A stretch of 64,000 nucleotides of DNA from Phoronis australis (taxonomy: Eukaryota; Animalia; Phoronida): assembly GCA_002633005.1 (NCBI GenBank), contig NMRA01000414.1, forward strand, positions 62,001-126,000, in the 5' to 3' direction. Under the pieces are notes generated by a model. That model saw only the letters and a program-made list of their open reading frames with translations. It was not told where the DNA came from and did no database searches. The position numbers were made by a program, and so were the translations under genes. Within the stretch, counting starts at the first letter, position 1. Every line of letters begins with the position of its first letter. Shown piece after piece: positions 382 through 31,700 of the stretch.

Positions 382-413
382 ATGAGTGTCTCTAATCGAT
401 CAAAAATCAAACG
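382..413 (+). CDS. ADGB: Candidate alternative first exon V1 of androglobin (MSVSNRSKIKR)
   Basis: ATG at 382, open to CG|GTAAGT; 32 nt = phase 2, compatible with exon 28664. Confidence 0.5.
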
Positions 414-722
414 GTAAGTTCATATGGATTGTTTTTGTAAATGTAGCGCTCAATACAATGTTAGCGATTGATGACGTCGATACGTCTACTGATAGCTGTG
501 TGTCGATGGACCGCGGACCTTAATTTTTTGTGGATTGCCTATCCGAAGACACTTACCGCCTCAAGATGGCCTGAATTTGCTGACAAGGGACTAGGTTTCA
601 TTGAAAAACGATTTTTCGGACGTAAGGGTAGTATTTGACGAAGTAATCGTCGCGTAGACGTCAGTCGCTTACGATAGCGAAATCACTACCAGATTCTGTT
701 GTCGTTGTCGAGTAAGTGCGAT

Positions 723-826
723 ATGATGAAGGATACGACGAAAAAAGGTCGTCTAACTCCTTCACGAAGCAAAGGAAATTCTGACAGAGACACGCCCACG
801 TTTAAAACCGCTACATATGGAGTTAT
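723..826 (+). CDS. ADGB: Candidate alternative first exon V2 (MMKDTTKKGRLTPSRSKGNSDRDTPTFKTATYGVM)
   Basis: ATG at 723, open to AT|GTAAGT; 104 nt = phase 2; basic, Ser/Thr-rich. Confidence 0.55.
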
Positions 827-2415
827 GTAAGTAAAAAGTTGATTTATCCTCCAATCCAAAGCATCATTAGATTAGTCTAGCTGAGACGAGGGCCAGATCT
901 AAGCTCTTCCATGCCAAATCTATAGTCTGAATCCGCGTCAACTAACGCAAGTTCCTTGTGTTAAAGGTGCACCCCCCAGAGTTTGCAAATAGTGAGACAT
1001 TAGCAAAGTGATTAACCATATTAAACTGGACTCGTAATCCAACTTACCCCTAAGGCAATCGGATCCAACCGTGAATATGAATGGAGAGTGCACCTGGAAG
1101 TGATTTGAAATACCCGTGTCTGCCGAAAGAGCTGATCAGCTCTTTCAAAAGTGATTCATTTTGACGCCCCTAGTTTTTATTGTTTAATGCCATGGAATAT
1201 TTTGTTCTGAGTGAACTTCATATTTGTCATCTAGGAGCACGCTTGAGACATATTTATCTAGAATGCCTAATGGCTTATAGTCGTAGAAAGTGTGTTGAGA
1301 CGAGGAAATAGGAAAGTCGACATTTTTAAGATCAAAGTGACATAAACATGAATGTGCCGATAAAGGGACTATTGTAGTAGACAATCTGGGATCTATTTGT
1401 CGCCATTGACTAGGGAAGCCAGTTCTTAACTTTTTATTGATCTTTGACATCAATTCACAAAGGTTTGCTGTCGCTCAAAGTCAGGTCCAGGTTTGGATTT
1501 CTTCAGATCCAAAGCTACACTAAGTCTGAAGGTTCCTGGACCAGTGATCAAAATGTTTTACGTATTGGATAATGCCAAAATTTCAATGTCTTTTATTTGG
1601 TAGAATTAAAAAGTACGATGTTTCCTCACCATTGGACGGCAGAGAGATCGTGAAATCGGTTTATCAACGGGCCTCAGAATTTTTCTTGCCCTCATAGCCT
1701 TTCTGCCATCTAAACCAATTATGAGATCAGCTGCGATTATTATGAAACACAATATCTTGTAAACGTGGTGTCCAACCCTGTCAAAAATGATGACAGTTGG
1801 CCTTCTTTCACTAGTCATTGCAGTGAGCGGTGTGTTTGGAGTTGCATTTTTGGGTGATTTTTAATTCAAAACGTCATTTTAGTAATTACCTTTATGAACA
1901 TTATAGTTATTTGCTGCTTAAAATATCATACATAATTATTTGCATAATTAAATGAGGCTTAATATTTCTTAAATAAAATCTTACTAATCGGCACAGGTAA
2001 AATGCCGACTATTAATGCTCAGGAGATCGCTTGCTCAAACATTGCCCTGTCAGTCTCGACGGATCAGCTGGAGATTGTCGTTAACGAGTGACGTCACGAG
2101 ATATGGAGTGTTTATCAACAAAAGGAACAGCAGAGCTAAATGGCACATAACTGGTGGTAGTGAAAAGATTTGAAAAGAAAATTAGGCTATCATAACACGC
2201 GAAATGACTGATCCGTTTATTAAATAGGCACTTTTATTGTGTTATTATTTACAAAGAACTTGCTGTGTTGAATAAAGACATGCGTTTGAATAACAATCAT
2301 TTTCAGTGAGTCTATAGCGACCAAGAAAAAAATCGTACGAGACATGGCAGCGCTATGCTGCTTCGTTTTTTGGTAATTGACGTTGTTTTGAAGAAAGTTT
2401 GTCGTTAAGCTGAAT

Positions 2416-2513
2416 ATGAAAAAGGGTGCTAAGACTCTCGGTGTAGAATCCGCCACGCCTAGGGGTGAATCCGCGGGAGCCGGAGGTCGAAACAGCCCGG
2501 GAGATAGGAAGGG
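2416..2513 (+). CDS. ADGB: Candidate alternative first exon V3 (MKKGAKTLGVESATPRGESAGAGGRNSPGDRKG)
   Basis: ATG at 2416, open to GG|GTAAGC; 98 nt = phase 2; GC-rich island in AT-rich flanks. Confidence 0.6.
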
Positions 2514-4088
2514 GTAAGCCATCACTGTAAAAATGCTAGCCATAGTTAACTACATAGATTTTTAACGAGTAAATCTCCATTGCCCTTAACGTAAAATAGT
2601 CTTTCTAATGGATCCATCTACACTTTAGTAGTTATCGCAGATCTAGATCTGACAAATATTCATAATAAGTTTTATTTTCAACTTGTTGGTCTGACTTGTT
2701 GTATGTACATGTTCATGAATATAGAATTCGGTATAAAATAATCTGTTGTCCAGAACTTTCAATGTCACAGTCGGTATGTTTGCTTATTTTGATTCCACTG
2801 ATTGCTTTCGTGTCTCGCTGTCGTTGTCACCGTTGGTATAATTGGTATTGTGATGTTTGCAGTCAACATCGTCTGCACTAAATGAAGTTGAGAAACGGTG
2901 TTTACTGCAGTATTGCAACCTTGTTCACTCTTCAACTAGCCGAAGGTGCAGATTGACTGTGTTGTAAATTAGTAATTAACTACTCAGAAACAAAAACAAA
3001 AATGCTAAGGGTATCCGCTGTCCATCTGTTGTTGCGAAGTCTGCCACTAGGTGGTCTACTCTTTTGCATTATCTGTAGGCTATTCTTCCCCGGTCGTTAC
3101 TGGCCCTTCTTCATCAATTGTTCTGAAAGAGGTTGTCCTTCAAATGCTGATGGCTCGAAGTGCCGGTGGACGACTGAGACCCTTTTGCTGTAACAAATTA
3201 ATTGTCTTACAAAGGGAGCGTTACTAGGTAAAAATATGGTGGAATTGGTCGCACTTCTAGTGAAGCTCAAAGGAATGTGATAGATACAAGTGGAAATATA
3301 TTTCGAATAACTCAATTAACATAACAACTCATGCATAGGCAAAATTTGACTCACTAGTGTATTTAGGGCATCCACACTTTGAATACGGTTTTCGAACGTA
3401 TATGTATACTGCTTATGTGAATCTTAATGTGATTATTAACAGTATCGCCGCTTCTTTTGTATTGATGCTATGGTCAAATCTGATATATCACATTTTTTCG
3501 TTGAATCATCATTTCTTAAGCCGAAAGTTAACCTTTACTTGGGAATTCGAACGTGTGAAGATACCGGGTGCAGCAATAATCCCGTAATCCTTTGATTTTG
3601 ATGACCCGTAGTCTGCGGGTGTGCTCCACTCACAATAGTGATCAAATAGACTAATTTTAAAAAACCCATTCATATAACTTAAGGAAGGTGATGCAACAAT
3701 GCTCGTGTGAATATCAGGAACTTCCATTGAAGATGTACATTAATGTCCTTTTCACAATCGGAAGCCGGGGATTAGCTGACTGTTGAATGACTTGGCCTAA
3801 CAGTGATGGTCTCCTGACGACTCAAGCATCCTGCAGAGGACATACGTATTGTTTATCATTGTTATCACAAGATTTCGTTGGGTTCTAATGGCTCGGATGA
3901 TTAGGTAATTTTAATACGATGTAATATTCATGTAGTACAAGGACTCCTATAATGACAGACATTTCAATTTGTCAACAAAAGGTTAACGGCTGCGTGTTTT
4001 CTGGGAGTAACATATTATAGTCCTAGGTGTTTTGACGGTCGTTGTTCGTAGTGTGACTGAAAAAGTGTCCTATAAGGCGAAATGCAAA

Positions 4089-4153
4089 ATGTTTCGACGG
4101 AAATCTTTACAGATAGCCTCCATCGCTAGTTTATCGATGAATGATAAACGAAG
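4089..4153 (+). CDS. ADGB: Candidate alternative first exon V4 (MFRRKSLQIASIASLSMNDKRR)
   Basis: AAAATG start, open to AAG|GTAAGC; 65 nt = phase 2. Confidence 0.55.
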
Positions 4154-7084
4154 GTAAGCGACATTAGTGAAATCGATCTGTAGTGTTGGTGATCTTCTTT
4201 ACCCGTAAGTAGTGCTCCTGCGAATGTGATCAATGTCTGCTTGTTCCAAGTCCTTCCAACAAAAAGCGCTTCTATATATGTGAGCTTTTGGGTCATAAGA
4301 TGATCGTGTACAGGAAAAATGGAGGAAATCATTGTAAAATGTGTGAAACTTTTTAGTTACCATTGAGTTATGAAAATCAGCACTGTTGGCGAGTGTTAGT
4401 CGTTTTCGGTATACTCCGTGTTCAGAGCGCATTAAAGAACCTTTAAATCCACCTGTTGGCATAAAAAAGTACTTTGGTATAGGCTGTTTACAATCGTGGA
4501 CCCGATCTCAACTTGTTCGTTACCAATGATTTCTAGGCTTGTTAAGAACTGACAGGTCGCTGTTGCTTTAGACCACGCATAGCAAGTTTATGACCAGCCT
4601 GGTCCGTCTTCTGTACCGCGTGTGGTTTGAAGAGACATCGAACTGTCACTTCACCACAACCCGGCCACAGTCCGGCATGTATTGCACCTTCCAATGGCAT
4701 GACGCAATCGTACTGAGACGAGCGTAAAGTTCACATTGCTCACGTTTCTCCAGGAGCACGGAATCATTGAAGTTCCGATCTCAATGCGATGCCCACAAGA
4801 AGAGATCTAGAAAACCGAGCTTTTATTTCCGGCTAACCCGTTTGAATAAATGAAATTAAGCTGTTATGTTTAAGTATTTTGAAATCACGACTTTGTTCGT
4901 GATCTCTCGAGACGCCGGTCTTTATCTTTTACTTGAAGGTCGCACTATTTCGAACCCCGAAATATGTGTGATGCATTTCTCAGTAGTAGTATGGTGTTTT
5001 TCACCAAAAATATCCAATCTAACCAAACTGTAGTCATGTTGTCCTTTTTCGTCTGCTTTGTAACACCTTCGAAGCGAGTGATGCGCAACAGGTTTTTGTG
5101 TCGTAGCATAATATGAGTAGACCGTTTACACATCGAGGCACACTAATTTCTCGATTAGTATCATCATTAGTGAATTAAATTTATCAAATTCACCAGGGCG
5201 AAATATTTTAAGATGTTAAAAATCCTGTTGTGAAAATTTCCAACTGCCAACTGTCCAGTAGAGTTTTATTACAAAAAAGATTAATGTACAATATCTGGGC
5301 TTCAAAACTTCCGACATAGTTATCAATACATATGGATGATAACTTTTAAGGAGAGAGAGAGGGGGGNGAAAGGGAGAGGGGGAGGGAGAGAGGGGGAGTG
5401 AGAGATAATACGTCTATTAACTTCTATAACAATTAGTAAATTCAATAAAACAGCCGTATAGATATAAATATAAGCCGGTGGTGTCTACATGAATACACCA
5501 AGAGTTCCAGTGATACATACAGAGGATGACCATTATAAGTGTAAAAATAAATATTGATAAATAATGTATATAAATTTTGATGTATAGTACGAGTGTACGA
5601 TGACTTGCCAATAAATATCAAGAACAAGTGTTATACTTACTAACAAATATGAAGTACAAATAAAATAAATGTTTTAGAATAAGGCACGATTAAAACAAGT
5701 AATCCCTAAAAACAAACATTTAGCAACTATTCTGAATAAAGTCACATTTCTCTTGTTTTAAGTTTTCTATAAACTTTAAGCAGAAAGTTAATTTTATCAA
5801 ACACTTTTGGTTATTCTGACTAAATGTTGCTATCGTAAGAGAAATCTGCCGTGGAAGCGAGACCTAGACAGGAGAGGAGCGCGTGGTAAGTTTAGATCAC
5901 ACGTTGACCGATAGATGTAGCATGTGTAGTTACCGGCAAATGAATTTTTCCATCAGTACAGAAATTTGAAGAGAGATCTCATACATGAAGGTAATGAAAT
6001 ATTCTTTGGTTGTTTACACTGAGAAATACCAACACTGAGATCGCAGTAAGTCGATAAGAGGCTTTACAATCCGTTGTGCGACTTAATTCTCATCGAATTG
6101 CCATGTAAACTCGGGAATACGGTATAATAATCATCGTTATACAATACGGGATTTATTACAACAAGTGCGATACCAAATTGAATTGAGATTGGTTCTGTTC
6201 CTTTTATCAACCGTCTTTTCAACGTGTTTTCAGTTATGCAACATTCATATTTACTCGTAAGATTTCATAATACACATATCTGCACCTATCAGAGGGAAAG
6301 CAGATCGTTCGCTGCATATTGTACAAAAATGCTACTTCGTCGAGTGCTGCAGTTGGCTCGCTACACTGCACACGTTTGGTAAATTTTTTAATTAATTTCC
6401 ACCGAATTAAGGTTGTAGACCCACGGAATCTCCGAGGTTGTTACCGAGTGCAACTGAACTTGAACCAGTTTCTGAATTTGTTCAGTCCTTGAGAATCGGA
6501 CAACGGCTGTTTGCTGATGGTGAAAAATCACTTCGGACTTGATGATAGCCATATTTATCTTATCGAGAGGTATCGAGGGAGATAAAAGGCATACAGAGTT
6601 ACAATCATCGCCCAAAGCCGGCAAAGTGTAATCGGATTAAGGTGAAAAAAATACGAAAAGTATAGTACGTGTAAGACAACGTAACGTTAATCGTCGTTGG
6701 ATTAGTGTTAATCTCAGTTTGCTTAAAGCGAAAAACTCTGACCGTGTTGACACCTTTCCGTAAGTCCTTATTGAAAAATCTTTCGATGTCGCTGGTCTGT
6801 TATTGTTACGAACTCGATTTCCAGTTGTTTTGAGAGTAATAGCGACAATCGTGACTTTGAAACACAGGTGAGGCATGTTCTATTACGAGTCGCTCTCTCG
6901 TTGTAAGGTGTGATACCGCGTTCCAATGTGAAGCGTATTAGGACTTAAATGTTGACCACCTGTAGCTGCCTTTTGTGCCGATTTCAACGCAGGAGACTGC
7001 AAAAAGAAGCCAGGCGTATATTAGAAAACTGTTGTTACATAGCTACACAGTCGATTTCAGTACACGAGTGAGATTCGCTTTGCC

Positions 7085-7194
7085 ATGTCAAGCACCAGAA
7101 AACTGAACACCCTCAAAGTACCGGGGGCAGGGGCCACCGAGAGGCCCTCCTCTGCATCCTCCAACGGCTCTCGGCCGAGGTCTGCCCGCAGGCG
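7085..7194 (+). CDS. ADGB: Candidate alternative first exon V5 (MSSTRKLNTLKVPGAGATERPSSASSNGSRPRSARRR)
   Basis: GCCATG start, GC-rich, open to CG|GTAAGT; 110 nt = phase 2; two RPxSA motifs. Confidence 0.7.
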
Positions 7195-10100
7195 GTAAGT
7201 ACAGAGGAGGAAGGCCGTTCATTTGACCATATTTCTGAACGATACTTATGTCGAAAAGAGCATCGTTTTAATCTGTCTGTGAAAAACGAAAATAGTTTTA
7301 AGGAAAAGAGAGACAACGGAGCTAGATAAAACAGAGCCAAATAGTGGCGAAATGTCAAGTGGGAAATATATGGCAAAATATCCACGAAACGTAGATTAAA
7401 ATATCAAACTCTTTGCTGCAAACATGAATGTGTCTAAGTAATACATGCCCATGAATAATGTCAAGACGTGTTCTCACTGAAGTATGACATTTTTACGCAG
7501 TTGTTTGGATCCAAAGACTGGGAGAATAAAAACTTTATGAAAACTAGACTCCACAAAGTTCGTGGTATGTGCGGTGTTTTTGATTCACCATTCCATTGAA
7601 AAATGTAAAAGAACATGGTCAACTATTTTCCCCAATATTCTTGATGCCCGAATAGAAATTTAAGGCTATGCCAAGGTCTTTACTAAAATCCCTTTTTAAC
7701 CGGAGTTTCCCAGTTTTTCAAATATTTAGATCATGGAGATAAACAGCAGAAATTATTTTATCTTCAAATCTATCATTGTTTTTTACCTATTTATCAAACA
7801 TTGTTACTACAACATGTAGTAAGATGCGAATATAACTAATATGACTAATATTGCTAATATTACTAGACACAGCAATTTTTGTCAGCCGAACTTGCTTTTT
7901 GTGAGTTTCTGATAACAGGTGATCACATGAGCTAACCATTTTAGTGCCTGTGGCGAGCCAAGGCCATTTTAGGTAGATTCCAACGTTTATGGTTTTCGCT
8001 TATTCTGCAACCAATTGTGTTTGTTTCTTGAGTGAGTCATTGTTCCTAGTGAATGATTTCGTGAATTTATCTTGATTTTTTGTGAAAATGGATTATGCCG
8101 TTATCAATAAGGAATTCTTTGCAAAGACAGAGCTGAAAAGATTGGTCTTGTCAGCCAGGGAATTTCTGGTATGCAATACCTGGAGATTACTCACAGCTAC
8201 AGTTGTGTGTTTCTATAGTTTTCTGAACAGGTCATGAAGACGTGAAAACGCTCATCAAAATAGTGCATAGGCAAATTCGTATAATATCGGCTTCCCAATA
8301 ACAACCAATGCAATAGTTGCGAGTTCTGCAGAATTTTGCATCGCTTGTTTCAGAAGTTCTTTTAACAAAATAGATCCTGTCTTCAGATTGGCTGGCCGTT
8401 CACCGGTTGGGTCAACCGAGTGGGGTCATCGATCTCCATGTCGACTTCCGGTTGATAGACCAATCAAATGTCTTATTATAGTCGGTTGACTCGGCGGAAT
8501 CGGTGAAGAGTTTCAAGTGCAGCCAATGAGAGATCAAACATTTACGTTGGGACCAAATGGCGTCCCATGTACGTTTACTTACGATCAGGGAGTATTGTGA
8601 AACGATACAGCACAGCCTATGAACTAGTTCACCGAAGCATTTCGTAACCAATACGAACACGTTGCAAGAAGACTTACAGTGTTCTTGATATTCAATGATT
8701 ACACTTTTTTGTTTTAACACGTCTAACTAGAACGTAATGTGCCAAATCAAGGGCTTGCCCCATAAGAAAGTACTGTATTAGATTGGCTGATAATGGCTCA
8801 ATCATAATGGTTAATTAGGGACGAATCTAGAATTTTGAGTTAGGGAGGACCAGGGCAGAGTATTACCCAGGATTTTGCCCGTCAGACATTCGCACCCCCG
8901 AACTGACCAATGGAATCTGGGAGAATTTTAGGGGTCCATGGCCCTCTTGCCCCCTTCCCCCTAAATCCGCTATAAGCATCAAGAAATTAAATGACAAATA
9001 TTTAAACTGTAAAACAGCTGATTAAAGGGATACATCACTGTGGATGACTGAAATAATGCATGGCACGTGTTGTCATGACAGTAAGAATTTCCGAAAACAC
9101 GTGGTAGATGTATTTTGCCCTTAGTCTTGTCCAAAGATAGGCACGTAAACGAGAACCGAGAATTCTTTTTATTTTATTGTCATTTTTCAAATCACGAGTT
9201 AAGTGCCCGCGCAGTTAGAATTAACAAATCTTTCATGACTTGTGCTGTCTGTGCTTCGTCCACTTGTTCAGAGCACATTACAGTTTAACTAGTTAAAATA
9301 TGATCTGTTGTGATAATTGATATGATATTATACGATATTAAAGCCGCCTTGCGGACTTGTTGAGGTCGTAGCTAAATGAACAAAAACTTTATTTACATAT
9401 TAGAAACTACCACGCGCTGTCTCAACGGACAAAGGGTTGCTGGATTGCCATCGGCCTACTTAGAACAGAACTTGATACAAATCCCAAAATGTAGAATATA
9501 AATTCCCACGGGAAATATTACAAAATATTTCGTTCGTACAGTTGTCAACATTTGGGGATTTGAATGATTATTTTCGAGTCACATTGCTGGTGAAAGCTGC
9601 AACTTTCGGTACCAGGAGAGGTTCAGGTTTTGATTTTTTGACAAAAAATGCCTTCCAGATCTATAAGAATCTTTCGTTTTTGCAATTTAGTTATAAAAAA
9701 TAATGAATCTAGTGCCACTTACACTAGCTGGGAATGCTAATGTAGTTATGGCCGTAAATAAGTCAAACAACGCGGTGCATGAATGTTTCACAATTCGGTT
9801 TCAGTTCGAAAGTTGGTAAATTACCGAATAACCACGTAGTCAAACGCATGTAATAATAGCATGCGAAGTTAAACTTAATAGTTAATTTAGGCACATGTGC
9901 CTAATATATGAAAAGTACTCGAGGAAAATCAAAGACGCGTTTGGAGAATGTGAGTGAAGGTTTTAGATGTTGACACGGTTTTCAATTGCGAACTGGTTAG
10001 TAGAAAGGGACGACGAATGGTTTTAGAAAAGTTTGTAATACATTGACTTGCACAAGGGACACAGTTCTATACCAGTTAGTGAAGCTTATTCATATAAAGC

Positions 10101-11029
10101 CTTCGATCAAATTTCTGTTTGAAATAAAGCATAATTTCCGTAATTGTATTATTGGCACATGAGCCTAAATACCTGCATATTCTGCACAAATGTAAATTGT
10201 ATTTTAGGTACACTGTAGTATCCGGTAAAAATTATACCCCCAGAGACATTATCGGCGAGAAAAGTAATTAGCCTCAGCGCGGAATCGAGCTTGGAACGCG
10301 ATTGCGAGCTAACGCTATGCTGGCAGAGCTAAGCCCCTTAGATAAATGGCGGAGCACTTAATCGTACTTACAGGTAAAGTCAGCAGCCTTGATTTTAGCG
10401 AACGTCTGGTTGAAAACGAATTTTGCTGTTTTATAGCCCGAAGATAATCCTAAAACACGCTTTTCTGTCCATATTGTCCGTTTAAAGTAATCGTTTCATG
10501 TTTTTCAGTCTTTTCCCAAAACAAAAAAGTATTTATCAGGTTTCAGTTTCTTCAAGGTTTTTTTTTTGCTTCAAGTTGATAATATGATAATGTCGCATAT
10601 TATTTAATTTTATTGTGATGCGACACAGTGGTTTGACGCTGCAGTGAACTTTAGCGTGAGAAATTTGAATATTTCATGAGTAACTCTATCCGTAAAAACA
10701 ACCCAAGGCTAGGCGTCTAACGTTCGTCTTACTACATCCTATAGGAGGATTTAGGTTAACATATTCTTTTCATGTCGCAGCACCGAGAACGCGCATGAAT
10801 TTCAAAATTAGCTATGTGTTAGCCTTGCAGGTATCAATACGTCCTTGGTTTAACCTTTGCATTTGAACGAACTCTATCGCTTGCTGGCACTCGAGTGGGC
10901 AGACATTTGTTGCGGTTCTGGACGCATTTCTTTCGCGAGCTTGAAAACAAATCATGGTAATCACGGTTTGACTGCAGTCGACTTGGTTGTTGAAGTTTCA
11001 TTTCGGACCCCTGTTTCGGCAATCACAGA

Positions 11030-11112
11030 ATGCCAGGTCGACGCAGGGCTGGGCATCCCAAGCCCACTTGTAGAACTATACTCCAAGCTAGCTCTCTTGG
11101 CATGGTCAGTTG
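11030..11112 (+). CDS. ADGB: Candidate alternative first exon V6 (MPGRRRAGHPKPTCRTILQASSLGMVSW)
   Basis: ATG at 11030, open to TG|GTAAGT; 83 nt = phase 2. Confidence 0.45.
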
Positions 11113-19785: not shown

Positions 19786-19850
19786 ATGGCCCTTGGCCTG
19801 GTTAGAGGCGCGTTTCAAAGGAAAGCGCGTTTGCTCTGTCAACAGCGGGC
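19786..19850 (+). CDS. ADGB: Candidate alternative first exon V11 (MALGLVRGAFQRKARLLCQQRA)
   Basis: AAAATGG start, open to GC|GTAGGT; 65 nt = phase 2. Confidence 0.4.
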
Positions 19851-20671: not shown

Positions 20672-20685
20672 GTTGCCATGGTGAT
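20672..20685. promoter_or_regulatory. RFX X-box-like motif GTTGCCATGGTGAT
   Basis: Close to the X-box palindrome GTTGCCATGGCAAC; about 90 bp upstream of ATG 20775. Confidence 0.5.
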
Positions 20686-20774
20686 TGGATTGGTGTTTAA
20701 TGACCAGTGGAATTAGGAGCAGTTTTAACAATTGAGGGACTGTAACTTTTAATGAAGAGTGGATTCATTTGAAA

Positions 20775-21199
20775 ATGAGTCGCCGGGTATCAGGGCAGCC
20801 GTCAACTAGTTTGGCGGCGAAAAAGAACGACAACAGACGACGGACCTCAAGTAAAGACAGTTCACAGTTTGGGTTCATTCGCCTGCCGTCAGCGGCCGAG
20901 CCTCTTCCTATAAAGGAGGGAGACATTTACTACAAAACAACACGATGGTACCCGTCTGTTGTCGGCGAAGAAAACGAAGAGGTTTACATCTCAATAACTC
21001 GTGCGGATGGCGCCCCGGTAGCCCGCAGCTTCCCACGCTCGGCTGGCAAGGAGCACCGTGAGTCGGTCGAGCGCTCGGACTCTAGGCGCGGCTCGGTGAT
21101 GAGCGATAAGGCCCGGGATGAGGCGATATCTACTCCGTCCCCCGGGGATGATCACAGCAAACCGGAACACAGGCATGATAAGGACGACAGTAAGACAAG
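20775..21199 (+). CDS. ADGB: Candidate alternative first exon V12, long (MSRRVSGQPSTS...DKDDSKTR, 141 aa)
   Basis: GC-rich hydrophilic ORF becoming T-rich after AAG|GTTTGT; 425 nt = phase 2; a competing phase-1 GTAAGA donor lies at 21190. Confidence 0.6.
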
Positions 21200-21462
21200 G
21201 TTTGTGGGATGCTTACAGATTAATTGCCCCTGTTGGCTGGGTAGGGCTTATAAAGTCACTTTCAATCAGTTTAAAAGAGCTTTCGCATATCTTGTTTCTT
21301 CTTTTTCACGTTTTATATTCGTGGTTTTCAGTTTCTCTGCCATGTCATCACTGATCGGTCATTTCCTTTTGTGCAAGTTTTTGTCATCGACCTAGTACAT
21401 ACGTCCAGTTATAGGTGACCACGTACTCGGTTATTTTGTCAATTTGGTCGCAAGCGCGCATC

Positions 21463-21531
21463 TAGGCAATGACCATCGCCTCTGTTGGCCCGAACCAGGT
21501 TCGGGCCAACAGAGGCGATGGTCATTGCCTA
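21463..21531. mobile_element. 69-bp fully palindromic MITE with 9-bp target-site duplication
   Basis: TAGGCAATG...CGAACC A GGTTCG...CATTGCCTA perfect inverted repeat; GCGCGCATC on both flanks (21454-21462, 21532-21540). Confidence 0.8.
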
Positions 21532-22728
21532 GCGCGCATCCAGCCTAAAAAGTCTGGCTGCTCGAATTTTTTAGAATTTGGGCTTTTGCTGAGATTCACG
21601 GGGTACGTTTTAAGCTATGAATTGTGCATTCGACGAATTTTGGTAGTTCCTGCCTTTTTAGTTGATTTTTGTCTCGTTTTCTACGTTTTTCGGAGTCTTT
21701 GTTTCTCTGAAGCGGACCTTTTTGTCCACTTCGTCAAATGGGGGAGGGGGCTCGTTCGCGCCAACACCCCCCAAGCCCCCTTCGGTGCGCGCATGCAGAT
21801 CGTTATTATCATACTAACATGAAGTTAGGGAAATAAAACAAGTGGAAACTCCTATGATGCTAAATGTGTAGTAGTAGATTTCTCGCCAATTGCATGTGGT
21901 TGGTGGGTAATAGTATTAAGACCCTTCCCTTTGGAGAAAGCCGAGTCGGCCACTGAGGGGGACCGTCATTTTTTGAGATCCTGGCTTCCGGGGGGACATA
22001 CTTAGGCCAAAATAAAAAATGCGACCCATATTCATACCGAAGAGCTAGAATTTTGCCCCATCTCTTCACCTATGACATTAACCTATACCTCATCTGAAAA
22101 GGTCGCTTGTCAAAATGTATCCCTTATCCCGCTCACCGTCGCTAATTGGTGCCTTCGGACTAGTGGAATCACGAGAGACTGGAACCCGCATCACACCAAT
22201 ACTTTTATCAAGCAAAAGCAGTAACCTCCCAATTCGTTTTTATACTCATAATGGTTAAAAAGCCACCCAAGTTTATACCAGGAATTTGCCAGAAATGCAC
22301 AGGCACCTCGCCGGCCAGCTCGAGCCGGCACGTCCGCCGCTCATTCCCGGCCCACTACTGCCGGACTCCCCTCGTCAGTGCCTGAGGGACGGCATTGAGT
22401 GTTTCATTTAGATTATGTCGTTATGATATGAAAGAAATTTTCACCTAATTTACGTTATGCCATTTCGTAGTTAAAAAGCTAGCGATTTCACAATCGTCGC
22501 TTCAAAAGATTTGTGGTTACGACCAGTTATCGTCGGCTGGGCGCTTTCATTCTGGGCTTGAGTTCAGTGTTCAAATATGGAACAAGATGTGTGGTTTGCA
22601 CTATTTCACCTAGGTGGCGCAACCTATTCGAGTTCACGCTCTTCGGAGTCAAAGCATGGCAACGGAATGAGATGTTTCGCTTTGAATTTGACGTGTGTTG
22701 CGTTAAAAAATAGTATACTTAACTACAG

Positions 22729-22793
22729 ATGGCTTCCAGACAAGCTAAGAAGAAAGATTCGGGTAACCGCGTAAGCTCTGGAGGAGCAAAAGA
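22729..22793 (+). CDS. ADGB: ADGB conserved first coding exon (MASRQAKKKDSGNRVSSGGAKE)
   Basis: Resembles recalled human N-terminus MASKQTKKKE; GA|GTGAGT donor, phase 2. Confidence 0.85.
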
Positions 22794-25700
22794 GTGAGTG
22801 CTTGCTTCGTAAAACTTTGTTGACTCTTTGGTTGGATACAAGATGGCGGCCCTCGATGTTCTTTCAAAAGCAAAGTTTACTCAATCGTTCACTGGTTGTG
22901 TACTTAATCGACTAAAATAACAATGGTGTATTAGGACAACCTGTTATCCCATTTATACTTGAGATTCACCAATCCATCAGTCTTCGCTGATTCCGAAGTT
23001 GCATTGTCACAGACAACTGACTAGTGTTGACCAAACTTACAGAGTCACTTGTCGCGAACGGCTGCGGTCGCTGACTTTGTACCGTAACTAGCAATGCGTC
23101 TTTACGTGACAGCACAGTCCGTATCAACATAATAACAATGTTTTAAATAAAATAATTCCTCGTATATAAGCTTGGGATTCCGGTCGTGTGTTTTCGAGAC
23201 TGACATTTTGACGTAGGTGTAGGAAGTGTGTGCTGTGTGTCCAGTTCATTATTTTGAAATTCAGAAGTGAACACTGTCACTGATTTTTTTCTTTATCATT
23301 TTTAAATGAAGTATTTAGTAAATGCCTTCAACTCTTATTCAACTGTACTGTGCAAAATCTAAGTATTTGTTGAAGCCATGTCTATGTCTGTAGGTATGCC
23401 AGTATTTCAAATTAAGTAATTTCATCCAGGACAAATGTGTTACTTTCTATCAACACGTTTCCATGCCGAAAATTCTGTTATTTTGATGATAGTTTTCTTG
23501 TTGGTAAGACGAGTATAAGCATCCATGCTGAGGATGCAATGAACTTTAGTTCTTTAAATTAGATTTACAACTGAATGAAAAGACTCTTAGTTCGTTCTGC
23601 ACCTCCTCTGATTTCAGTGCTGAAACTTTCAATGTTGCTTTAATAGGCTATTTCCGAGTATTTTAAAGACCACTAAGTCCTTTAATATGTAATTATAGAC
23701 AGTCATCAGAGGCCTGTTTCATGAAAGCGACATAAGACTTTTGACAGAAATTTGGTCTTGTGCTGCCACTTCATCACAATTGCTAAAAAATGTCCCTAGC
23801 TTTGAGGAAAAGATGAGCGCGCCACAGTTTATAAATAAGATATAGAAATTGTCTCAGTAACCTGCAGTTATGTGTATACTCTCAGAGGTCTTGCACTTTA
23901 GCTCAAGTGATACTTATTTTTCATCCTAGTTGTGTGGAGCCTGCGACTACACGAAACAGGCCTATACAAAACTGTGAATGTTCAGTTCAAATCAGATGCA
24001 GCTTATTTAGATGTACGATGACGTTCTTATTTTTAAAATTGGGTCTGTAAGAGAAGGCATGAACAAGTCTGTCCTTTTCAAAATTACAGAGTTCCCATAT
24101 ATGTTAAACAGGCAGTGTTCTTTAAGTTCACTGACAAGATTGTTGATAAAGTTGGGAGTTGGGTACTGTGTTAATGTGCACTTAAGCTCACCCTGAAACT
24201 CTATTTAAGAATTTATCCTGGAGTTCAATTGAAGTTTCTCATGAATTATGAATGGCTGATTGTTTCCTTTCACTCTGTTGTTCACTGCTGTTGTGCTCGT
24301 CCAATGAGTAGTTCTGCAACGTCCATTGTTTCTTGGACAAAAAATGTTTTGTTGTGGAATTGTACAGGCAGTTGTTGTGTTATGCCGTCTGGTAAACCTT
24401 CCGCGTAAACTTTCTCTCAGAGCTGCCATTCTGAAATATTGACACAGTTTGATTGCAGGCAGAATCTCCATATTTGTTCTAGGCTGTCTCGAGCGAACCA
24501 ACCATTGTTGATATAATTTACGGCCTTACTTTTGCGCTATTCATTCCTACGGCCTCTGATAACGGGTTGGGCTTTTGGTGTTGATGCCAATTTGAATGGT
24601 TAGTTTTTCAATTCCTCCTGGAGTATGGCAGACTTGGTTAAACTTTTCTCGAGCTGTTGAGTTCAGATTTGTGGCCGAGCAATGACATCCCAACACAACA
24701 CCGCAAAGCACAGGTAAAAAGGGTACTCAGTAATTGTGATATATTTTTATTGTGACTGTTTTGAATAGGTACTGTGGATATGCTTACACGATTACATTCA
24801 ATGGGGTTAAACCTCATGAATGGGGCTACTGTATGTGCTGTGGTATACTACAGATTATTAGAAATAGAATACCGTTATGTTAATTATGTGGTACCAAATA
24901 TTGAGTGTTTTTATGACACTGCACTTGTTTCAATGTGCTGGTGAACTTTGAGCCGTTTATTTCAAGAAATTGTGTATCGCTTTGATGTATTGTTCAGTTG
25001 GCGTTTATGTGTCTCTCCGTTCAAAGCAGAATGGACTTGTCATTTATTCCATGAACATTATTGAAATTTGAACAGAATTTTGGCCATTCTCGTCATAGTT
25101 CAAGCAGGTAATTCACAATCGCTTTTTAACCTCAGGCATGAAAACCTGTTTGATGAACTAGAATCTTGGCTTTTTTAATTATGTAAAATTTGTATTAGAT
25201 TTTTAGACATTTTATTTCTCCTTCCAAGTTATTTTTAATCTTGTGCACAAAGCTATCACTGTGTTGTAATGTGCTCGTATTTTGGTATTTAATTGACATA
25301 TTACAAATTGGGTGATTTGTTTTTTTTTTTGGAACACATTTGTAAATTCACTGCACATGTATTAAAAACAGCTGTGTCCAGACAGGCAGATTTCATCTGC
25401 GGCAAAAACTTATTTACTAGCGGTACTGATAATGGTTTTTCAAATGAATTGTGGATGGTTGTCAGCTCACTTAAACATCCGCCGGCATCACTGCAAAGGT
25501 GGAGATTTGAAAACCTGGGTTGTGTTCCGTAGACGCAAGAATTTAGCGAGTAAAGCTTGTGTGATCTTGTGTTTTGCTTGTAATGGGTTTGCGATATCTC
25601 GTGAAGCCATGCATAATCTTGCATTTTTGCGAGTTTCTTGGGTCTACGCAACACAAGCCTGGTGTTTTAGGTGGCGTGATAGCACGACACATGCTTGAGG

Positions 25701-28700
25701 ATCTTTCATGCTATAAGTCTATATTCGATGCATTTGTAGCTCACATCAATTTTTTTGGTATTTGGTTATTGTTTATTCATCACACTCATACTAGAATCAT
25801 GCTGTAGAAGGCTGGTCCTTTCATCACACTCATACTAGAATCATGCTGTAGAAGGCTGGTCCTTTCATCACACTCATACTAGAATCATGCTGTAGAAGGC
25901 TGGTCCTTTCATCACACTCATAGTAGAATCATGCTGTAGAAGGCTGGTCCTTTCAATTACAGTGAGCTCAAATGTCAGTTCTGTTTTCCGTCCTATTGGT
26001 TAAAAGTTACCAAGTTTTACGTGATGTCGCCAGATGTTTGTGAGCCGACAACCATCCCATAATGCATTCGAGAAATGGCAGCATTACCGTAGATGAAGTT
26101 CCCCACCAATGCCAAGGCACAAAGTATAAGGAGAACGCCACTCTGCCCGTATCGCAAGAGTTATGTGCCTGTATGAGTAAAGCTAAGCATATTGCCGAGG
26201 TGATAATTCTTCTTTGATAGTGCTTTTTCAAGCCTCACCCCGGTGCACTTGTGCCGGAACAAATTTATAAAATGCAACTTGTTAATAACTCTGAACAGTG
26301 TCATTTTAAGTTTAATAGACACCGGACATCTGCACCTGATGATCTTGTTCTTTGGGCAAGTACCTCTATTGACAACTATTGAAACAAAAGTATTCTGTTA
26401 CTGTACATACCCTATAAACTTACAGATCAAGGTTTTGAGAGGAAATCTGCCCTGTCTGTTGTGGACTTGGTTAACAGTGACAGTACTTAGTACTATCTTT
26501 CATACTGGATTAAGCGCTGATTTTAACACATTTCAACATACTGTAAAAGAGAACATGTTTCATCAGTTCACCTCTAGCATCAAAGTTGTGCTAAACAGTC
26601 TCAGAATGATGATAATGACCATTTTGTAAATCTAATTCCAAATGTATCCGTATGAGAGGAAAGGTAATTCATTTGCCCTGTTATTGATTTTTCTAGAAAT
26701 ATTCAACTCTCTAACATCAATAGGAAACCGTGACTAGCCATTGTATGTTTGAAATTTAATGTTCATGTACTGTATTTGTATCAAATACACTTCTGATCTG
26801 TCATAGCCACAAGGTGTCTCTTACCAGTTGTCAATGGCGACAACAGTGTGTTTACACTGTCATCCAATCCCAGTCTTTTATCTGCACTTCAAGCTATTTG
26901 CTATAGATTGCCAGGAGGGCAGACACTGTCTAAGCTTGCTTTTGTATACTAGAAACTGACGTACAAAACATAGCCAAGACTAAGTGTATGCCAATACTCA
27001 GAACTGCATTTGTGCACTGGGGATTGCCTGTGAAAATGAAACATCTCTGTTGAATTAATACTTAGCTCGAATCTTGTCTTAGTATGATGGAGGAATAAAT
27101 GTGATTAAAATTGTATGTTCAATGTGCAGTGAGAAATGAACTGATAATTACTTATGATGCTTGACTCAAGTTCTGTGGAACATCTGACAGTAGGACAAAA
27201 TATGAATGTTCTTGTGAAAAGTTTTGCCGTTTTATTGAGCAGTGTGTGAATTGTCTCGGTGGGAAATTCATTGATTGATTGTTGATGGCTTCAAACGTTA
27301 GAGCCATCTCTTCTTGGTAATGTATCTATGTTTGGAATTTTGTCAGAACACTACCTTTGTGGTCATGTATTGAAAACAATATTTACTCTGATGTTATCTA
27401 ATCCCTCCACACTCTCTAGCAGTTAAGCCTTCAGTTCATGCCATTCATATTCAAATCACAATACATCACCGTGTTTGTTTTGCCTGTTAAAAGCTTTCGC
27501 TCCGTCAATAGCAGGATATTGTGTTCTATGAAAAAGAGCATTGGGTATGCTCACCTTTGCTTGCCCTAATAAGTTATGACAAGCTGGTCTCCAAGCAGTT
27601 AACAGTTGATAGGTGGCCATAAGTAGTAGTTAGCTGGCATGTAGCTATGTTTAACGACGCGCGATTGGTGATGTGACGGTTTGATTTGCAATGACTCGAC
27701 GCAGCTCAAGTGTGTTAAGTACAAACTTAGCAGTCGACAGAAGGGAGTCGGTGTAAGTTGAGAGTTTTGTTCCAGTGTCAAAATTGTTTTGCGTGGTAAT
27801 TCGTGTTGCTGTCATTCTTCTTCTCCAGCAAACTGTGATGTAACCATTGGTCAATACAATTGCAACACCTGGGTTTACTGTTTATCCAGACAGAGAGAGA
27901 AAAATTCATTTCCAAACCAATTGAAACAAGCTTCACGATGGGGTGGCTAGCAAAGGCTCACATCCCAAAGCCGATCACAAAACTGTTAGCCTTTTTTGTT
28001 TGCATTTGTCAGCTTTAGGAATTGTTCCATGACCAGATATGCACTGGGTGACAGACATGATTCAATTTTTTTTCTGATCTCCCCTCTTCTGGTCCCAACA
28101 GGTTGCATTTTCTCCAGTGCAGTGGTGCTTGATGTCTTTCACAAAATTTGCACTATGAACTGGTCACAGTTTTTTCGCAGGTAGTTGAATTACGTAACAC
28201 GACTCAGTAGTTTAATTATCACGTGTGTAGCGTCTGTACCATAGCTATATCCAAATGATCACTGGTGGGATTGATTGCTTTCATTGTACACATAATTTCA
28301 GCAAAATGTACTAATACTCAATGGAATATGGACTTAGAAGTATGAACATGACTTTGTAATCATACTAGTATGTGTATTAGCCAAGAAAGTGTGGGAACAG
28401 GTAATGTCCCCAACGTTTGGAAACAAATGGTGATGAAAAATTGGAAAGACAAGAATATTTTCGAGCATATGTCCCCAAACCGTAAAATCCAAATCTGCCA
28501 GTGCTTTTAATGCTTTGTTTCATCATCATGAAGGGCAACGTTGGTAACATGTTAGATCGCATGAGTATTTTGGTCAGGAATACCATTGTATAAGTCTCTC
28601 GGCTTATTCTGGCTGTGACCCGGTGTATTTTTGTCTGTTCTAAATGTCTTTCCTTTCTTTCAGGGCTGCCTCCATCGCTGGTGCCGGAAGACAGAAGTTA

Positions 28701-31700
28701 AACATATGGCCTGAATTCAACGACAATGATATCAATGCTGAGAAATGGGTAAGTTGTTGTTCCAGACCTCTGAAATGTGCACCTCAGCCTAATTAGATCC
28801 ACCCATTGCAAATACCCTCCTTTTAAACCCACTAGTAAAAACAGTTCACTGCTAATGCCATTTCATTGATCCGTCATTTTGTTCCTGTTTGCTCACCATT
28901 TCTTAGTAGAAATCCGAGTTCATGGTTTGAGAATGCAGACAAATTTTAGATGCCAGTTGCTGTAAGCATTTGTCCCCGTGGAAACCTTGACAAAAACGTT
29001 GAAACCTGCTCAGCACGTTTTGTTGTTCCTTTATTGCTTCACGAATGTTTTAGAGCAAAAGCAGCTCTGTCGCCGCGGTAAGTGCGTTGCAGCTAAAAAG
29101 GGCGAAAGGAAATGAACAACATAGCTTTGCATGTTTGACACCATGCTTCATCTAATGTTGCTTGCCCACCACTGCTGCAACACCCCTGTTTTGCGCAGTT
29201 TTGGTCATTGGGAAAGTGTAACTCCAGACTGAAACAGCCATCGCAATGGTTCAAAATATGCCCACAAACTTGTGAGTTGCTCTGCTCTCCTGCTGTGGGA
29301 AAAGCTACTGTGAAAGAAGTAATCACAAGGTTTTGATATGCAACACACATTCAATTGTTATTGTGAATTGACTACGCCATCTGGTGTTCAATCCCTAGAA
29401 CTAGTGTGAACTTCAGTGGTGCTACTGGTGAAGAGTTAGTGGGAAAGATAAGTAGAGTTGTGATGGAGTTGCTATACACCGGAGTTTCACAAATGGGAAA
29501 GCGACATTCTTGTAACTTAATATATATTGTGTAGTCTATCTGGAGGTTTTTGATTTTTGCAAAGGTATTCGGTTTTCATTAGCTTACCAAAATATTAACA
29601 ATTGCACACAACACTGGTGGTGTGAAAGCAAAACCAACATTAAATAGGGGATGAGAAATGTTACTTTGTAAAGACATTTTTACCAATTTGAAAAGCATTT
29701 TGAATCTTTTCCACAAAAATGACAGCAGCAAAAATAACAATTCCTCAAACCGTAAGTGTTTTGCAGTGAGCAAGTGATGAAAACATATCCCTCAGTCTGA
29801 GTGAGCTGTTTTCTCACTTTTGGGTTCTTTGAACTGTGCTCCATGCTCAGTTAGATAAACAGTGTTTGAAGGATTACAAACATTTTAAGTCTGGTCTGCA
29901 CGCCACCTGTTGGGCACATCACGTAACCTAATGAACACAAGTTCGAAAAGATTTCTGCCCCCAACCAAGACTAGAACCCAGAACCTTTTGCTAACCGTAC
30001 AGATGCTGTAGCCACTATGTAAATCTTGAAGGATTATTTAATTTTGGTTTTACAGAATTCACTAGATTCAAATGTGTTAAATTTATTAAAAACATTGTCA
30101 AAAGGGTAACATCTCTCTTTATCTATCAATGTAAATTTAGATCCTAAGTGAAATTTGTTGTCAATTTCCTTAGCATAAATGAAAGCTCAGAAAAGATATT
30201 CAAATTTGGCATGGTTTACTGTATTATTTAGCAATGCATGATAAAAATGAGCATTTATGGCAATGCAACGTGGGAAGATTAAGAAATATAAGCAGGAAAA
30301 TTACAATTTTGACTGTATACATTTTGTTCAAATAACAATTGTTGTTAAAATTTAAGTTGCATTTGAAATTAGCTCTTTGGCTGTATAGTATTAGGATCCT
30401 GAGGTAAAACTCTGTCATATAGTCATATTCCATGAACAAAGGCTAATTACAGCTCAAGAAAAAAAATGACGTTTCTAGGTTACACTATGAGTTCTTTGTC
30501 TTCTCGCAAAGTTGTCGGGCATAAAGCGTGCGCTTGAAGTTTCTTGTCGCGTGCACCCTTGACCTGTACTGGTAACAACAACCTCACGCATGAGTGATTA
30601 TGACATTGTTAATATCACCTTGACTGTCATTTGCACGCGGATCCGGATCAATAACCCTGTGTGTGTCTGTTATTAAAAGGGATCTGGTGCGGCTGTTAAG
30701 GTAACCGATCGCTGGCTCCGTGCCACCCTCTCTTGCTTCCTGTCCACTTTTCTCTCCTCTGCACAGTGCCTAAATTTAATTCACTGTCGTGGTATTGGTT
30801 AATTCAAGTTTCGTACCTACTCCGTACATTGCTTTTGTAGACACAGGTCACTCAAGATCTAGAGAGAAGCCTATTTTTTACTTTTCGTATACTTTTCATG
30901 CAAAGCACTGTCAGTTTTGTTCTGTTACTAGGCAACTTTCCTTAAATTAAATGTGCTTGCAATCTTATCTAGCAGCTTTTACTAAACGAGTCTTTCTGGG
31001 AAATTTAACCTTTTCTTTGAATGAAATGTATTCTTTAAAATGTCCATGTGTACATATCTAGTACAGGATGTGTCAAGTTTTATTGGGCAAAATTGCATTT
31101 CCATGTCATGTTAAGTTTGTTTATCAATATGTTTATTCAAGATGGTGAATGTTTTCTATAGTTTCATCGTTTGCCAAGAATCAATTTTTTCCTATCTAGT
31201 TAGTAATGATTTTTATAATGTATCCGTTCTTTAATTTCTGTTCATTCATTCTTAGGAGTTGCGCATGGTAGGTAGCCGATGGTGACACATTGTTAGGACT
31301 GATTATAATTTTATATTTATTGGCTTTCAGAGGCTGTTTTACGTTTCTTGATTGCACTTTTCTGTGTTTTTGGTTAGACGTGAATCAAGTGATGCGTGAT
31401 CGTGGACGATAATCGAGATGTTCGTTTAACTACATTTCGATTTGTTGAAAGTTTAACTTTAAATGCATGAAGAGCAATTTTTCCATTTGCACAATAAATG
31501 AATATCATATATCTTATGAATTTTTACTATGATTTGATGCTTGTTCCTGTATTCTTAAACATGTTTTTAATATTTTTTCTTGCACAGTTAAACAGTCGTA
31601 ATGTCAGCTTAGATAGACGTTGGTACCACGCTGCTAGTTACTATTGTTACCTTTTTTGCATGAGCGAAATGAACAGTCATAAAAGAAGCAAAGTTCATGA

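What the first reader, a model, noticed from the sequence alone, without database searches (positions are those of the whole stretch)
382..28748. Array of about 14 phase-matched alternative first exons feeding one androglobin body
Seen: 14 ATG-to-donor segments over 25 kb (382, 723, 2416, 4089, 7085, 11030, 12695, 15387, 16360, 18757, 19786, 20775, 22729, 24682), each of length 3n+2. Ten have GTAAG/GTGAG donors. All are in frame with the first shared exon at 28664, and one is the conserved MASRQAKKK exon. Most are GC-richer islands encoding Lys/Arg/Ser-rich peptides of 10-141 aa with no mutual similarity. No other + strand gene body is visible that could accept them. Known: variable first exons spliced to constant exons occur in clustered protocadherins, UGT1A and plectin; I know of no such report for androglobin. 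Inference: a multi-promoter system making many N-terminal ADGB isoforms, perhaps by ciliated cell type or spermatogenic stage. Caveat: I chose ATGs after noticing the phase pattern, so some short candidates may be chance. The array may extend upstream of the window.
Basis: partly seen in the sequence, partly recalled or inferred. Interest (0 to 1): 0.9.

Follow-up and report, generated by a model that had tools for sequence, protein, structure and literature searches.

The report
Androglobin with many alternative first exons
In this invertebrate, the single gene for androglobin, a protein of beating cilia and sperm tails, splices at least three different front-end exons (likely about ten) onto one shared body; annotated proteins of molluscs, amphioxus and corals show the same layout but sampled vertebrates almost never do, and it would let different ciliated cells carry differently regulated versions of one protein.

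Summary
The array is real, but 14 is probably too many. All 14 segments exist and end in phase 2, and strong donors show a phase-2 excess (10 of 20 against 2 and 2). RNA reads join three exons directly to exon 2 at 28664 (18851: 21 reads, 21199: 5, 22793: 4). A fourth (12876, 55 reads) goes first to an unnoticed 18-nt frame-keeping micro-exon. Five candidates showed no junction; five upstream ones have no RNA test. Exon 20775 is homologous to an alternative N-terminus of molluscs and Lingula. In 18 of 21 invertebrate groups with several sampled proteins, 2-10 unrelated N-termini join at this point; 96 of 99 vertebrate proteins carry the canonical one. Other species' alternative tails are basic and hold 31 RRxS/T sites against 6.7 expected, suggesting PKA-tuned isoforms (untested). 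The layout is plectin-like, not protocadherin-like. It already sits in automated annotations, but I found no paper on it. The scan had not noted it for androglobin; it noted similar arrays in other genes.

The parts
28664..28748 (+). Shared exon 2 of androglobin (first constant exon), phase-2 acceptor
   Evidence: tblastn to Owenia and oyster ADGB; three RNA junctions end here; alternative N-termini of other species join at the homologous residue
22729..22793 (+). Canonical first coding exon, conserved from corals to mammals
   Evidence: Junction 22793->28664 in 4 reads of X2; best match to hemichordate canonical N-terminus, score 77 against null max 46
20775..21199 (+). Long alternative first exon (141 aa), conserved in molluscs and Lingula; four RRxS/T sites; predicted mostly disordered with a small three-strand core
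   Evidence: Junction to 28664 in 4+1 reads; score 126 against null max 72 to Lingula; alignment of 8; 20 of 20 profile hits carry androglobin or calpain Pfam domains; model pLDDT 55
18757..18851 (+). Alternative first exon (31 aa), RNA-supported, no homologue found
   Evidence: Junction 18851->28664 in 11+10 reads, 11 and 7 start places; no match above null
12695..12876 (+). Alternative first exon (60 aa), the most-read junction in the laid stretch; spliced to a micro-exon
   Evidence: Junction 12876->13951 GT..AG in 35+20 reads
13951..13968 (+). 18-nt micro-exon that keeps phase 2; onward splice to 28664 inferred, not listed
   Evidence: Acceptor used in RNA, longest overhang in X2 is exactly 18 nt; GTAAG donor follows and the joined frame is open into exon 2; exon-2 depth about 78 and 56 against 15 direct junction reads per run
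382..413 (+). Candidate first exon (10 aa), no RNA test
   Evidence: Donor 9.7 bits, phase 2; too short for a composition call
723..826 (+). Candidate first exon (34 aa), no RNA test, likely real
   Evidence: Donor 8.3 bits; composition +7.5 bits like annotated alternative tails
2416..2513 (+). Candidate first exon (32 aa), no RNA test, likely real
   Evidence: Donor 10.0 bits; composition +17.9; weak likeness to the canonical mollusc exon, p=0.045 uncorrected for 14 tests
4089..4153 (+). Candidate first exon (21 aa), no RNA test
   Evidence: Donor 10.4 bits; one RRxS site; composition neutral
7085..7194 (+). Candidate first exon (36 aa), no RNA test, likely real
   Evidence: Donor 10.5 bits; GC 0.65; composition +17.0
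11030..11112 (+). Candidate first exon (27 aa); silent on the sense strand in the runs laid, covered by antisense RNA
   Evidence: Donor 8.9 bits; sense depth 0-0.07, no junction
15387..15574 (+). Candidate first exon (62 aa), weak donor, doubtful
   Evidence: Donor 1.9 bits; composition +9.7; low sense depth nearby, no junction
16360..16487 (+). Candidate with strong donor but background-like peptide, doubtful as coded
   Evidence: Donor 10.5 bits; composition -14.1; no junction
19786..19850 (+). Candidate (21 aa), doubtful
   Evidence: Donor 6.2 bits; composition -3.6; no junction
24682..24713 (+). Candidate (10 aa), probably chance
   Evidence: Donor 5.9 bits; in the CpG-poor zone, local o/e 0.68; no junction
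27691..27752 (+).
   Evidence: Donor 9.5 bits, phase 2; local CpG o/e 0.9; no junction
1..23200 (.). CpG-undepleted domain holding 13 of the 14 candidates; inferred unmethylated promoter zone
   Evidence: CpG o/e 1.08 against 0.51-0.57 downstream; change point at 23200, about 400 nt after the canonical donor
10852..13519 (-). Antisense RNA overlapping the 12695 exon and its upstream region (limits are depth-bin edges)
   Evidence: Opposite-strand depth 1.7-15 in X1 and X2, 0-0.26 in X3; no junction listed on that strand there
20672..20685 (.). RFX X-box-like site 103 nt upstream of the long exon's ATG; similar cores at 12901 and 22655
   Evidence: Motif scan, consensus recalled and chosen after viewing the sequence
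32120..63973 (+). Androglobin body exons (calpain-like part to C-terminal region; gene runs off the window)
   Evidence: tblastn, splice sites, open frame over the first eight exons, Pfam Androglobin_IV E=1e-32

Best explanation
This androglobin gene splices several unrelated coding exons, spread over at least 23 kb, onto one shared exon 2, and each is likely a first exon with its own promoter, so one gene likely makes about ten proteins that differ only in a short, basic, probably disordered N-terminal tail. Shown: three direct junctions, one junction to a micro-exon, the phase-2 excess, and deep conservation of two of the exons. Inferred: separate promoters in an unmethylated zone, some likely driven by RFX; promoter choice would set which tail a ciliated cell type or sperm stage uses. 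Inferred function (about 45% by itself): the tails would add or remove PKA sites and positive charge at the front of a subunit of the central-pair C1b projection, tuning how that cilium's beat answers to cAMP without duplicating the gene.
For: RNA junctions GT..AG 18851->28664 (11+10 reads), 21199->28664 (4+1), 22793->28664 (0+4), 12876->13951 (35+20); no junction listed between the other variable exons or into their 5' sides. Phase-2 excess. No pyrimidine-tract acceptor within 60 nt upstream of any of 15 ATGs. Long exon shared with 8 mollusc groups and Lingula. 18 of 21 invertebrate groups with two or more sampled proteins show 2-10 distinct N-termini joined at the same place; junction residues fit one shared third base in 17 of 17 groups (p=0.011) and 34 of 74 are Arg against 12% background, as phase-2 donors predict. 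Only 1 of 287 invertebrate proteins, a Solemya 'hypothetical protein', looks like a chain onto the canonical exon. RRxS/T 31 against 6.7+-2.5 in 50 alternative tails, while RR-S/T and RRxxS/T spacings are not enriched; enriched in four of five clade groups, not in the canonical exon or in 34 R/K/S-rich body windows. CpG step at 23200. ADGB as a C1b subunit: PMC8175508, PMC12979858 (passages); RFX/FOXJ1 control: PMC7949040, PMC13331133.
Against: No start-site evidence: table 6 lists none. Five of nine tested candidates had no junction, though only about 18% of each run was read and only two runs express the gene. The junction 13968->28664 was not listed. A composition score did not separate mechanically chosen phase-2 ORFs from controls (7 of 21 against 5 of 24 above 3 bits, p=0.19). 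In the window itself RRxS/T occurs in only 2 of 14 peptides (5 against 1.6, p=0.019) and the wider [RK][RK]xS/T is not enriched (p=0.24); the RNA-supported 12695 and 18757 tails have no such site. Twelve of 14 window peptides have no convincing homologue. Owenia (4 proteins), Glandiceps (6) and Symsagittifera (12) show a single N-terminus. The X-box association is post hoc and weak (3 of 3 cores, p=0.027; strict consensus 0 hits). Other species' isoforms are automated models, not validated proteins.
Confidence: 0.82

Rival explanations
1. A small real set (canonical exon, long conserved exon, two or three more) sits in a wide unmethylated zone; most other exons are short-lived by-products of leaky promoters that survive only if they happen to be in frame, and their tails are neutral.
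For: 12 of 14 window peptides lack convincing homologues; 39 of the other species' N-termini are singletons; phase-2 excess is about 8, not 14; five tested candidates silent; CpG-rich DNA alone raises Arg and Ser in any frame (7.4% and 9.5%).
Against: Non-canonical junctions outnumber the canonical one; the precise RRxS/T spacing is enriched about fourfold in other species' tails but not in all-frame translations of the zone (35 against 26, p=0.07); several tails are kept across bivalve genera.
Confidence: 0.3
2. The point of the array is the promoters, not the tails: each gives expression in another ciliated cell type, and the peptides only need to be soluble and in frame.
For: Tails are low-complexity and unrelated; X-box-like sites lie beside three of four RNA-supported exons; Adgb is expressed in many cell types of anthozoans (PMC13331133 Discussion).
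Against: A promoter-only need could be met by non-coding first exons; the long exon keeps a structured core across molluscs and a brachiopod; PKA-type motifs are enriched.
Confidence: 0.35
3. The upstream candidates (382-7194, and perhaps 12695 with its micro-exon) belong to another transcript or a non-coding RNA, not to androglobin.
For: No RNA test for the five upstream exons; onward junction of the micro-exon not listed; antisense RNA shows other transcription in the zone.
Against: They carry much of the phase-2 excess; the micro-exon is a multiple of three with a good donor; exon-2 depth is four to five times what the direct junctions explain; no Pfam family in 11 ORFs tested between 14.2 and 28.7 kb.
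Confidence: 0.12
4. Chance pattern produced by picking ATGs after seeing the phase.
Against: Mechanical counts show the excess; RNA junctions; homology. It can explain a few members only.
Confidence: 0.02

Closest known systems
Plectin (PLEC) alternative first exons (PMC8468861, passages read)
   Same: About a dozen first exons splice into one exon 2 and give short, different N-termini on one large structural protein.
   Different: Plectin tails have proven isoform-specific roles; here function is untested. Here the gene is a ciliary globin-calpain chimera, and the layout appears from corals to amphioxus but not in sampled vertebrates.
Automated RefSeq/GenBank androglobin isoforms of molluscs, Lineus, Lingula, Ptychodera, Branchiostoma and corals
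   Same: Same gene, same junction, same phase; the long exon and the canonical exon are homologous.
   Different: These are numbered 'isoform X' models; I found no paper that describes or interprets them. The window has more candidates than any sampled genus, with sampling capped at 15 listed members per cluster.
Clustered protocadherins (PMC7811963, passages read); UGT1A recalled, not read
   Same: Variable exons upstream of constant exons; an antisense RNA runs through an active variable exon's upstream region here, as described for Pcdh-alpha.
   Different: There the variable exons are duplicated paralogues encoding whole domains with conserved promoter elements; here exons and flanks are unrelated and encode short tails. 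No evidence of stochastic choice here.
Mammalian ADGB (PMC7949040 passages; PMC13696810 passages)
   Same: Same body and canonical first exon; RFX/FOXJ1 control; the short N-terminal region undergoes calcium-dependent processing, so it may be regulatory.
   Different: The passages read describe one promoter at one first exon; 96 of 99 sampled vertebrate proteins have the canonical N-terminus.
PKA catalytic subunit with sperm-specific exon 1 in mammals and mussel (PMC13425070, passages read)
   Same: Alternative exon 1 gives a cell-type-specific N-terminal tail on a flagellar regulatory protein in a mollusc.
   Different: Few variants rather than an array; a different protein.

Membership tests
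Androglobin (ADGB) | Calpain-like N-terminal part, globin and IQ region, androglobin-specific domains in order | tested here: met
   Colinear tblastn cover of Owenia ADGB residues 1-1546; PF22069 E=1.3e-32; hits named androglobin at up to 80% identity
Androglobin (ADGB) | Heme binding by the permuted globin; C1b localisation | not testable with these tools
   Taken from PMC8175508 and PMC7475203 (passages) for other species
Plectin-type multiple coding first exons | Three or more different coding exons spliced directly to one common exon 2 | tested here: met
   Three direct junctions in raw RNA reads
Plectin-type multiple coding first exons | Mutually exclusive use, all in frame | tested here: met
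   No junction listed between variable exons apart from the micro-exon; all phase 2; 1 possible chain in 287 proteins of other species
Plectin-type multiple coding first exons | Each exon has its own promoter and start site | tested here: inconclusive
   No start pile-ups listed; indirect support from CpG zone, no upstream acceptors, X-box-like sites
Plectin-type multiple coding first exons | Tissue-specific use and isoform-specific function | not testable with these tools
   Two expressing runs of unknown tissue; canonical junction listed in X2 only, on small counts
Protocadherin/UGT1A variable-constant clusters | Variable exons are paralogous duplicates | tested here: not met
   No DNA or peptide similarity among cassettes
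Protocadherin/UGT1A variable-constant clusters | Each variable exon encodes a whole folded domain | tested here: not met
   10-141 aa low-complexity peptides; longest has no Pfam hit and pLDDT 55
Protocadherin/UGT1A variable-constant clusters | Antisense-coupled, stochastic promoter choice | tested here: inconclusive
   One antisense RNA over the most-used exon, present in the same two runs as the sense RNA; single case, no single-cell or methylation data

The most novel reading that the evidence does not exclude
An array of first exons at the androglobin locus dates from before the coral-bilaterian split, turns over its members quickly while keeping phase 2 and PKA-site content, and works as a cell-type code for ciliary beat: each ciliated cell type picks a promoter, perhaps helped by antisense transcription as in protocadherins, and so fits its central-pair C1b projection with a different phospho-regulated tail. 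Vertebrates lost the array and kept the default exon.
Probability: 0.25. Interest if true: 0.85.

Novelty: new member of a known kind. Interest (0 to 1): 0.62.

Why it matters
The newest survey calls androglobin a rigid single-copy ciliary gene that tolerates neither duplication nor loss, and notes an unexplained wider spread of expression in anthozoans (PMC13331133, Discussion). An array of first exons is a way to diversify such a gene without changing its dose. Invertebrates use many kinds of motile cilia (gill, feeding bands, larval bands, sperm; general knowledge), and how one axoneme parts list gives different beats is open. Each isoform has a unique 5' exon, so the idea can be tested at once by junction counting, in situ probes and phosphoproteomics in oyster, mussel, amphioxus or coral, where annotated isoforms already exist.

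Tried and rejected
No whole genome is held for this window, so sequence upstream of base 1 and congeners could not be checked. The run search listed no indexed RNA holder; three raw RNA runs came by species label. X3 had no exon-2 coverage; X4 contigs gave no androglobin junction. The five upstream candidates got no read-level test. Read depth at 8851-9517, 17.5-18.9 kb and 20.9-22.2 kb is largely partial, 90-95% matches with loose ends (dispersed repeats) and was not used. Duplication origin of the exons: rejected. The AG right before the ATG at 22729 as an acceptor: no pyrimidine tract and no junction into it. Another protein-coding gene between 14.2 and 28.7 kb: 0 Pfam hits in 11 ORFs; ORFs further upstream were not scanned. 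Composition classifier on mechanically chosen ORFs: not significant. FOXJ1-like, CCAAT and TATA motifs: no enrichment near candidates. ESM Atlas for the long exon: best score 0.78, uninformative. PDB by sequence: only FAP42, nothing on the N-terminus. Tree: window falls in a supported lophotrochozoan clade (97/96), unresolved among annelid, brachiopod, nemertean and mollusc branches. Some tails of other species look like basic amphipathic calmodulin-binding helices by eye; not tested. No complex prediction was run. Papers not held: Zhang, Haws and Wu 2004 and Hoogewijs 2012. No supplements were read; those of the androglobin papers could mention isoforms.

Full report
1. The gene. The + strand from 22729 on encodes androglobin: tblastn with Owenia ADGB gives colinear exons from residue 1 to 1546, one body exon hits PF22069 at E=1.3e-32, and the first eight exons join in an open frame. 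A tree of 23 rows places the window in a supported lophotrochozoan clade (97/96) without resolving the phylum.

2. The observation. All 14 segments exist, are 3n+2 long and are in frame with exon 28664-28748. GTRAG donors in + 1-28663 with an open ATG at least 30 nt upstream split 9/8/22 of 56 by phase; three control regions were flat or low in phase 2 (14/13/14 of 79; 7/5/1 of 35; 10/9/11 of 60), and GTAAGT donors split 0/0/7 of 12. With a matrix from 22 body donors the split was 2/2/10 of 20 (p=0.001 against the other phases, p=0.013 against 13 of 63 controls), an excess of about 8; stricter thresholds gave 1/2/7 of 14 and 0/0/3 of 5. A real exon can have a weak donor: 21199 scores 4.2 bits yet is used in RNA. 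The cassettes are not duplicates of each other.

3. RNA. Three raw RNA runs under the same species label and one contig set were laid on 8851-28850, about 18% of each raw run. Listed GT..AG junctions: 18851->28664 (X1 11, X2 10), 21199->28664 (4, 1), 22793->28664 (0, 4) and 12876->13951 (35, 20). All these reads have the first mate on the minus strand, which fixes the library orientation. X3 has no depth on exon 2. Position 13951 starts an 18-nt micro-exon followed by GTAAG; it keeps phase 2 and the joined frame is open into exon 2. Its onward junction was not listed, so that link is inferred: the longest overhang in X2 is exactly 18 nt, sense depth beyond it is low, and exon-2 depth (roughly 78 and 56) is far above the 15 direct junction reads per run (a rough budget). 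No junction of three or more reads was listed for 11112, 15574, 16487, 19850 or 24713. The five candidates upstream of 8851 have no read-level test. No start-site pile-up was listed, so 'first exon' is inferred from the lack of junctions into these exons and the lack of acceptors upstream of their ATGs.

4. Other species. A search with a body exon returned 87 proteins, many being numbered isoforms. I listed members of 20 invertebrate clusters, at most 15 each out of up to 100, and cut each protein at the start of exon 2. 287 proteins gave 105 distinct N-termini; fragments without the exon-2 motif and one protein without a cut point were left out. After clustering, with one chained family split by hand, distinct N-terminal families per group were Branchiostoma 10, Crassostrea 9, Haliotis 6, Ostrea 6, Mytilus 5, Ptychodera 5, scallops 4, Biomphalaria 4, Pomacea 4, Babylonia 4, Lineus 3, Montipora 3, Oculina and kin 3, and 2 in Mya, Lingula, Physella, Littorina and Saccostrea. 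Owenia, Glandiceps and Symsagittifera gave one each, and 12 groups had a single protein. Seven RefSeq isoforms of B. belcheri have seven different N-termini. Junction residues fit one shared third base in all 17 groups tested (p=0.011) and 34 of 74 are Arg, the mark of phase-2 donors. The window's 141-aa exon matches Lingula (score 126, null max 72) and aligns with six molluscs around a conserved core and an RRGS motif; a profile of it found 20 proteins, all androglobin or its calpain-domain fragment. Twelve window peptides have no convincing homologue. Of 128 listed members of 10 vertebrate clusters, 99 had the exon-2 motif and 96 of these the canonical N-terminus; 29 fragments or truncated forms were not counted. 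The vertebrate representatives came from a query that included a canonical N-terminus, which biases that list but not the cluster members. Because only two exons align across phyla, it is the layout that is shared; independent gains in a long first intron are not excluded.

5. Promoter zone. CpG o/e is 1.08 over 1-23200 and 0.51-0.57 after it, with the change point about 400 nt past the canonical donor, and TpG+CpA rises downstream. I read this as an unmethylated promoter zone followed by a methylated gene body (general knowledge of invertebrate methylation; not measured). An X-box core occurs three times in 1-25000, beside three of the four RNA-supported exons (p=0.027, post hoc, consensus recalled). 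An antisense RNA covers about 10.9-13.5 kb in X1 and X2 but not X3.

6. What the tails may do. They are basic and low in hydrophobic residues, in other species (net charge +10.9 per 100) as in the window (+12.0). In 50 alternative families of other species RRxS/T, the PKA consensus (recalled), occurs 31 times against 6.7+-2.5 in shuffles, neighbouring spacings are not enriched, and the excess holds in bivalves, gastropods, nemerteans plus brachiopod, and deuterostome invertebrates but not in three short coral tails, the canonical exon or charged body windows. In the window the signal is weaker: five sites in two peptides. ADGB is a C1b central-apparatus subunit in Tetrahymena and mammals (PMC8175508 and PMC12979858, passages), and its short N-terminal region is processed in a calcium-dependent way (PMC13696810, passages). 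I therefore propose cell-type-specific, cAMP-responsive tails; this step is inference, about 45%.

7. Known or new. The layout matches plectin (twelve first exons into exon 2; PMC8468861, passages) and fails two defining tests for protocadherin/UGT1A clusters. Searches for androglobin with 'alternative first exon', 'alternative promoter' and 'alternative splicing' plus 'mollusc' found 0 papers; searches listed none on this by title or abstract start. The 2026 survey PMC13331133 (term search, abstract and Discussion read) has one 'isoform' mention and none of first exon, promoter or splicing; PMC7949040 (passages) treats one human promoter. PMC12399478, PMC7475203, PMC7811963 and PMC13425070 were seen as passages only. 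Hoogewijs 2012 and Zhang 2004 were not held, most subscription papers are outside the library, and no supplements were read. The isoforms are present in automated annotation, so the data are public but, as far as these searches reach, uninterpreted. Earlier scan notes hold no androglobin array but report first-exon arrays in other lophotrochozoan genes, which suggests the layout is not rare there; I did not check them.

8. Verdict. Real array, four members with RNA support (one through an inferred link), likely 8-11 in all; new member of a known kind; interest 0.62.

Noticed in passing
window 10852-13519, minus strand: Antisense RNA over the most-used variable exon, present in the two runs that express androglobin and absent in the one that does not; no minus-strand ORF of 90 aa lies within it.
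   Followed up: partly
window 13951-13968: 18-nt micro-exon used by the 12695 exon, followed within 20 nt by an imperfect inverted repeat at 13990-14128.
   Followed up: partly
window 27691-27752: A further phase-2 candidate between the canonical exon and exon 2, with a strong donor, a small CpG-rich patch and two RRxS sites; no junction listed.
   Followed up: partly
window 23200: Sharp step in CpG content, from 4.4 to 2.2 per 100 nt, just after the canonical first exon.
   Followed up: partly
window 21462-21532: Near-perfect 71-nt palindrome inside a dispersed, transcribed repeat; possibly a MITE-like element.
   Followed up: no
window 25776-25955: Tandem repeat of about 44 nt in four copies.
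   Followed up: no
window 37231-38083 and 58281-58661: Duplicated intronic stretch giving near-identical ORFs at 37231-37545 and 37790-38083, with a related minus-strand stretch near 58.3-58.6 kb; my local self-comparison did not cover it.
   Followed up: no
P0004, P0008, P0019, P0058, P0074, P0113: Several alternative tails of molluscs, Lineus and amphioxus contain basic amphipathic stretches that by eye resemble calmodulin-binding helices; not tested.
   Followed up: no
invertebrate ADGB clusters: Isoforms sharing one N-terminus still differ by up to about 200 aa, so the body is also heavily alternatively spliced in invertebrates (up to isoform X50 in Mytilus).
   Followed up: no
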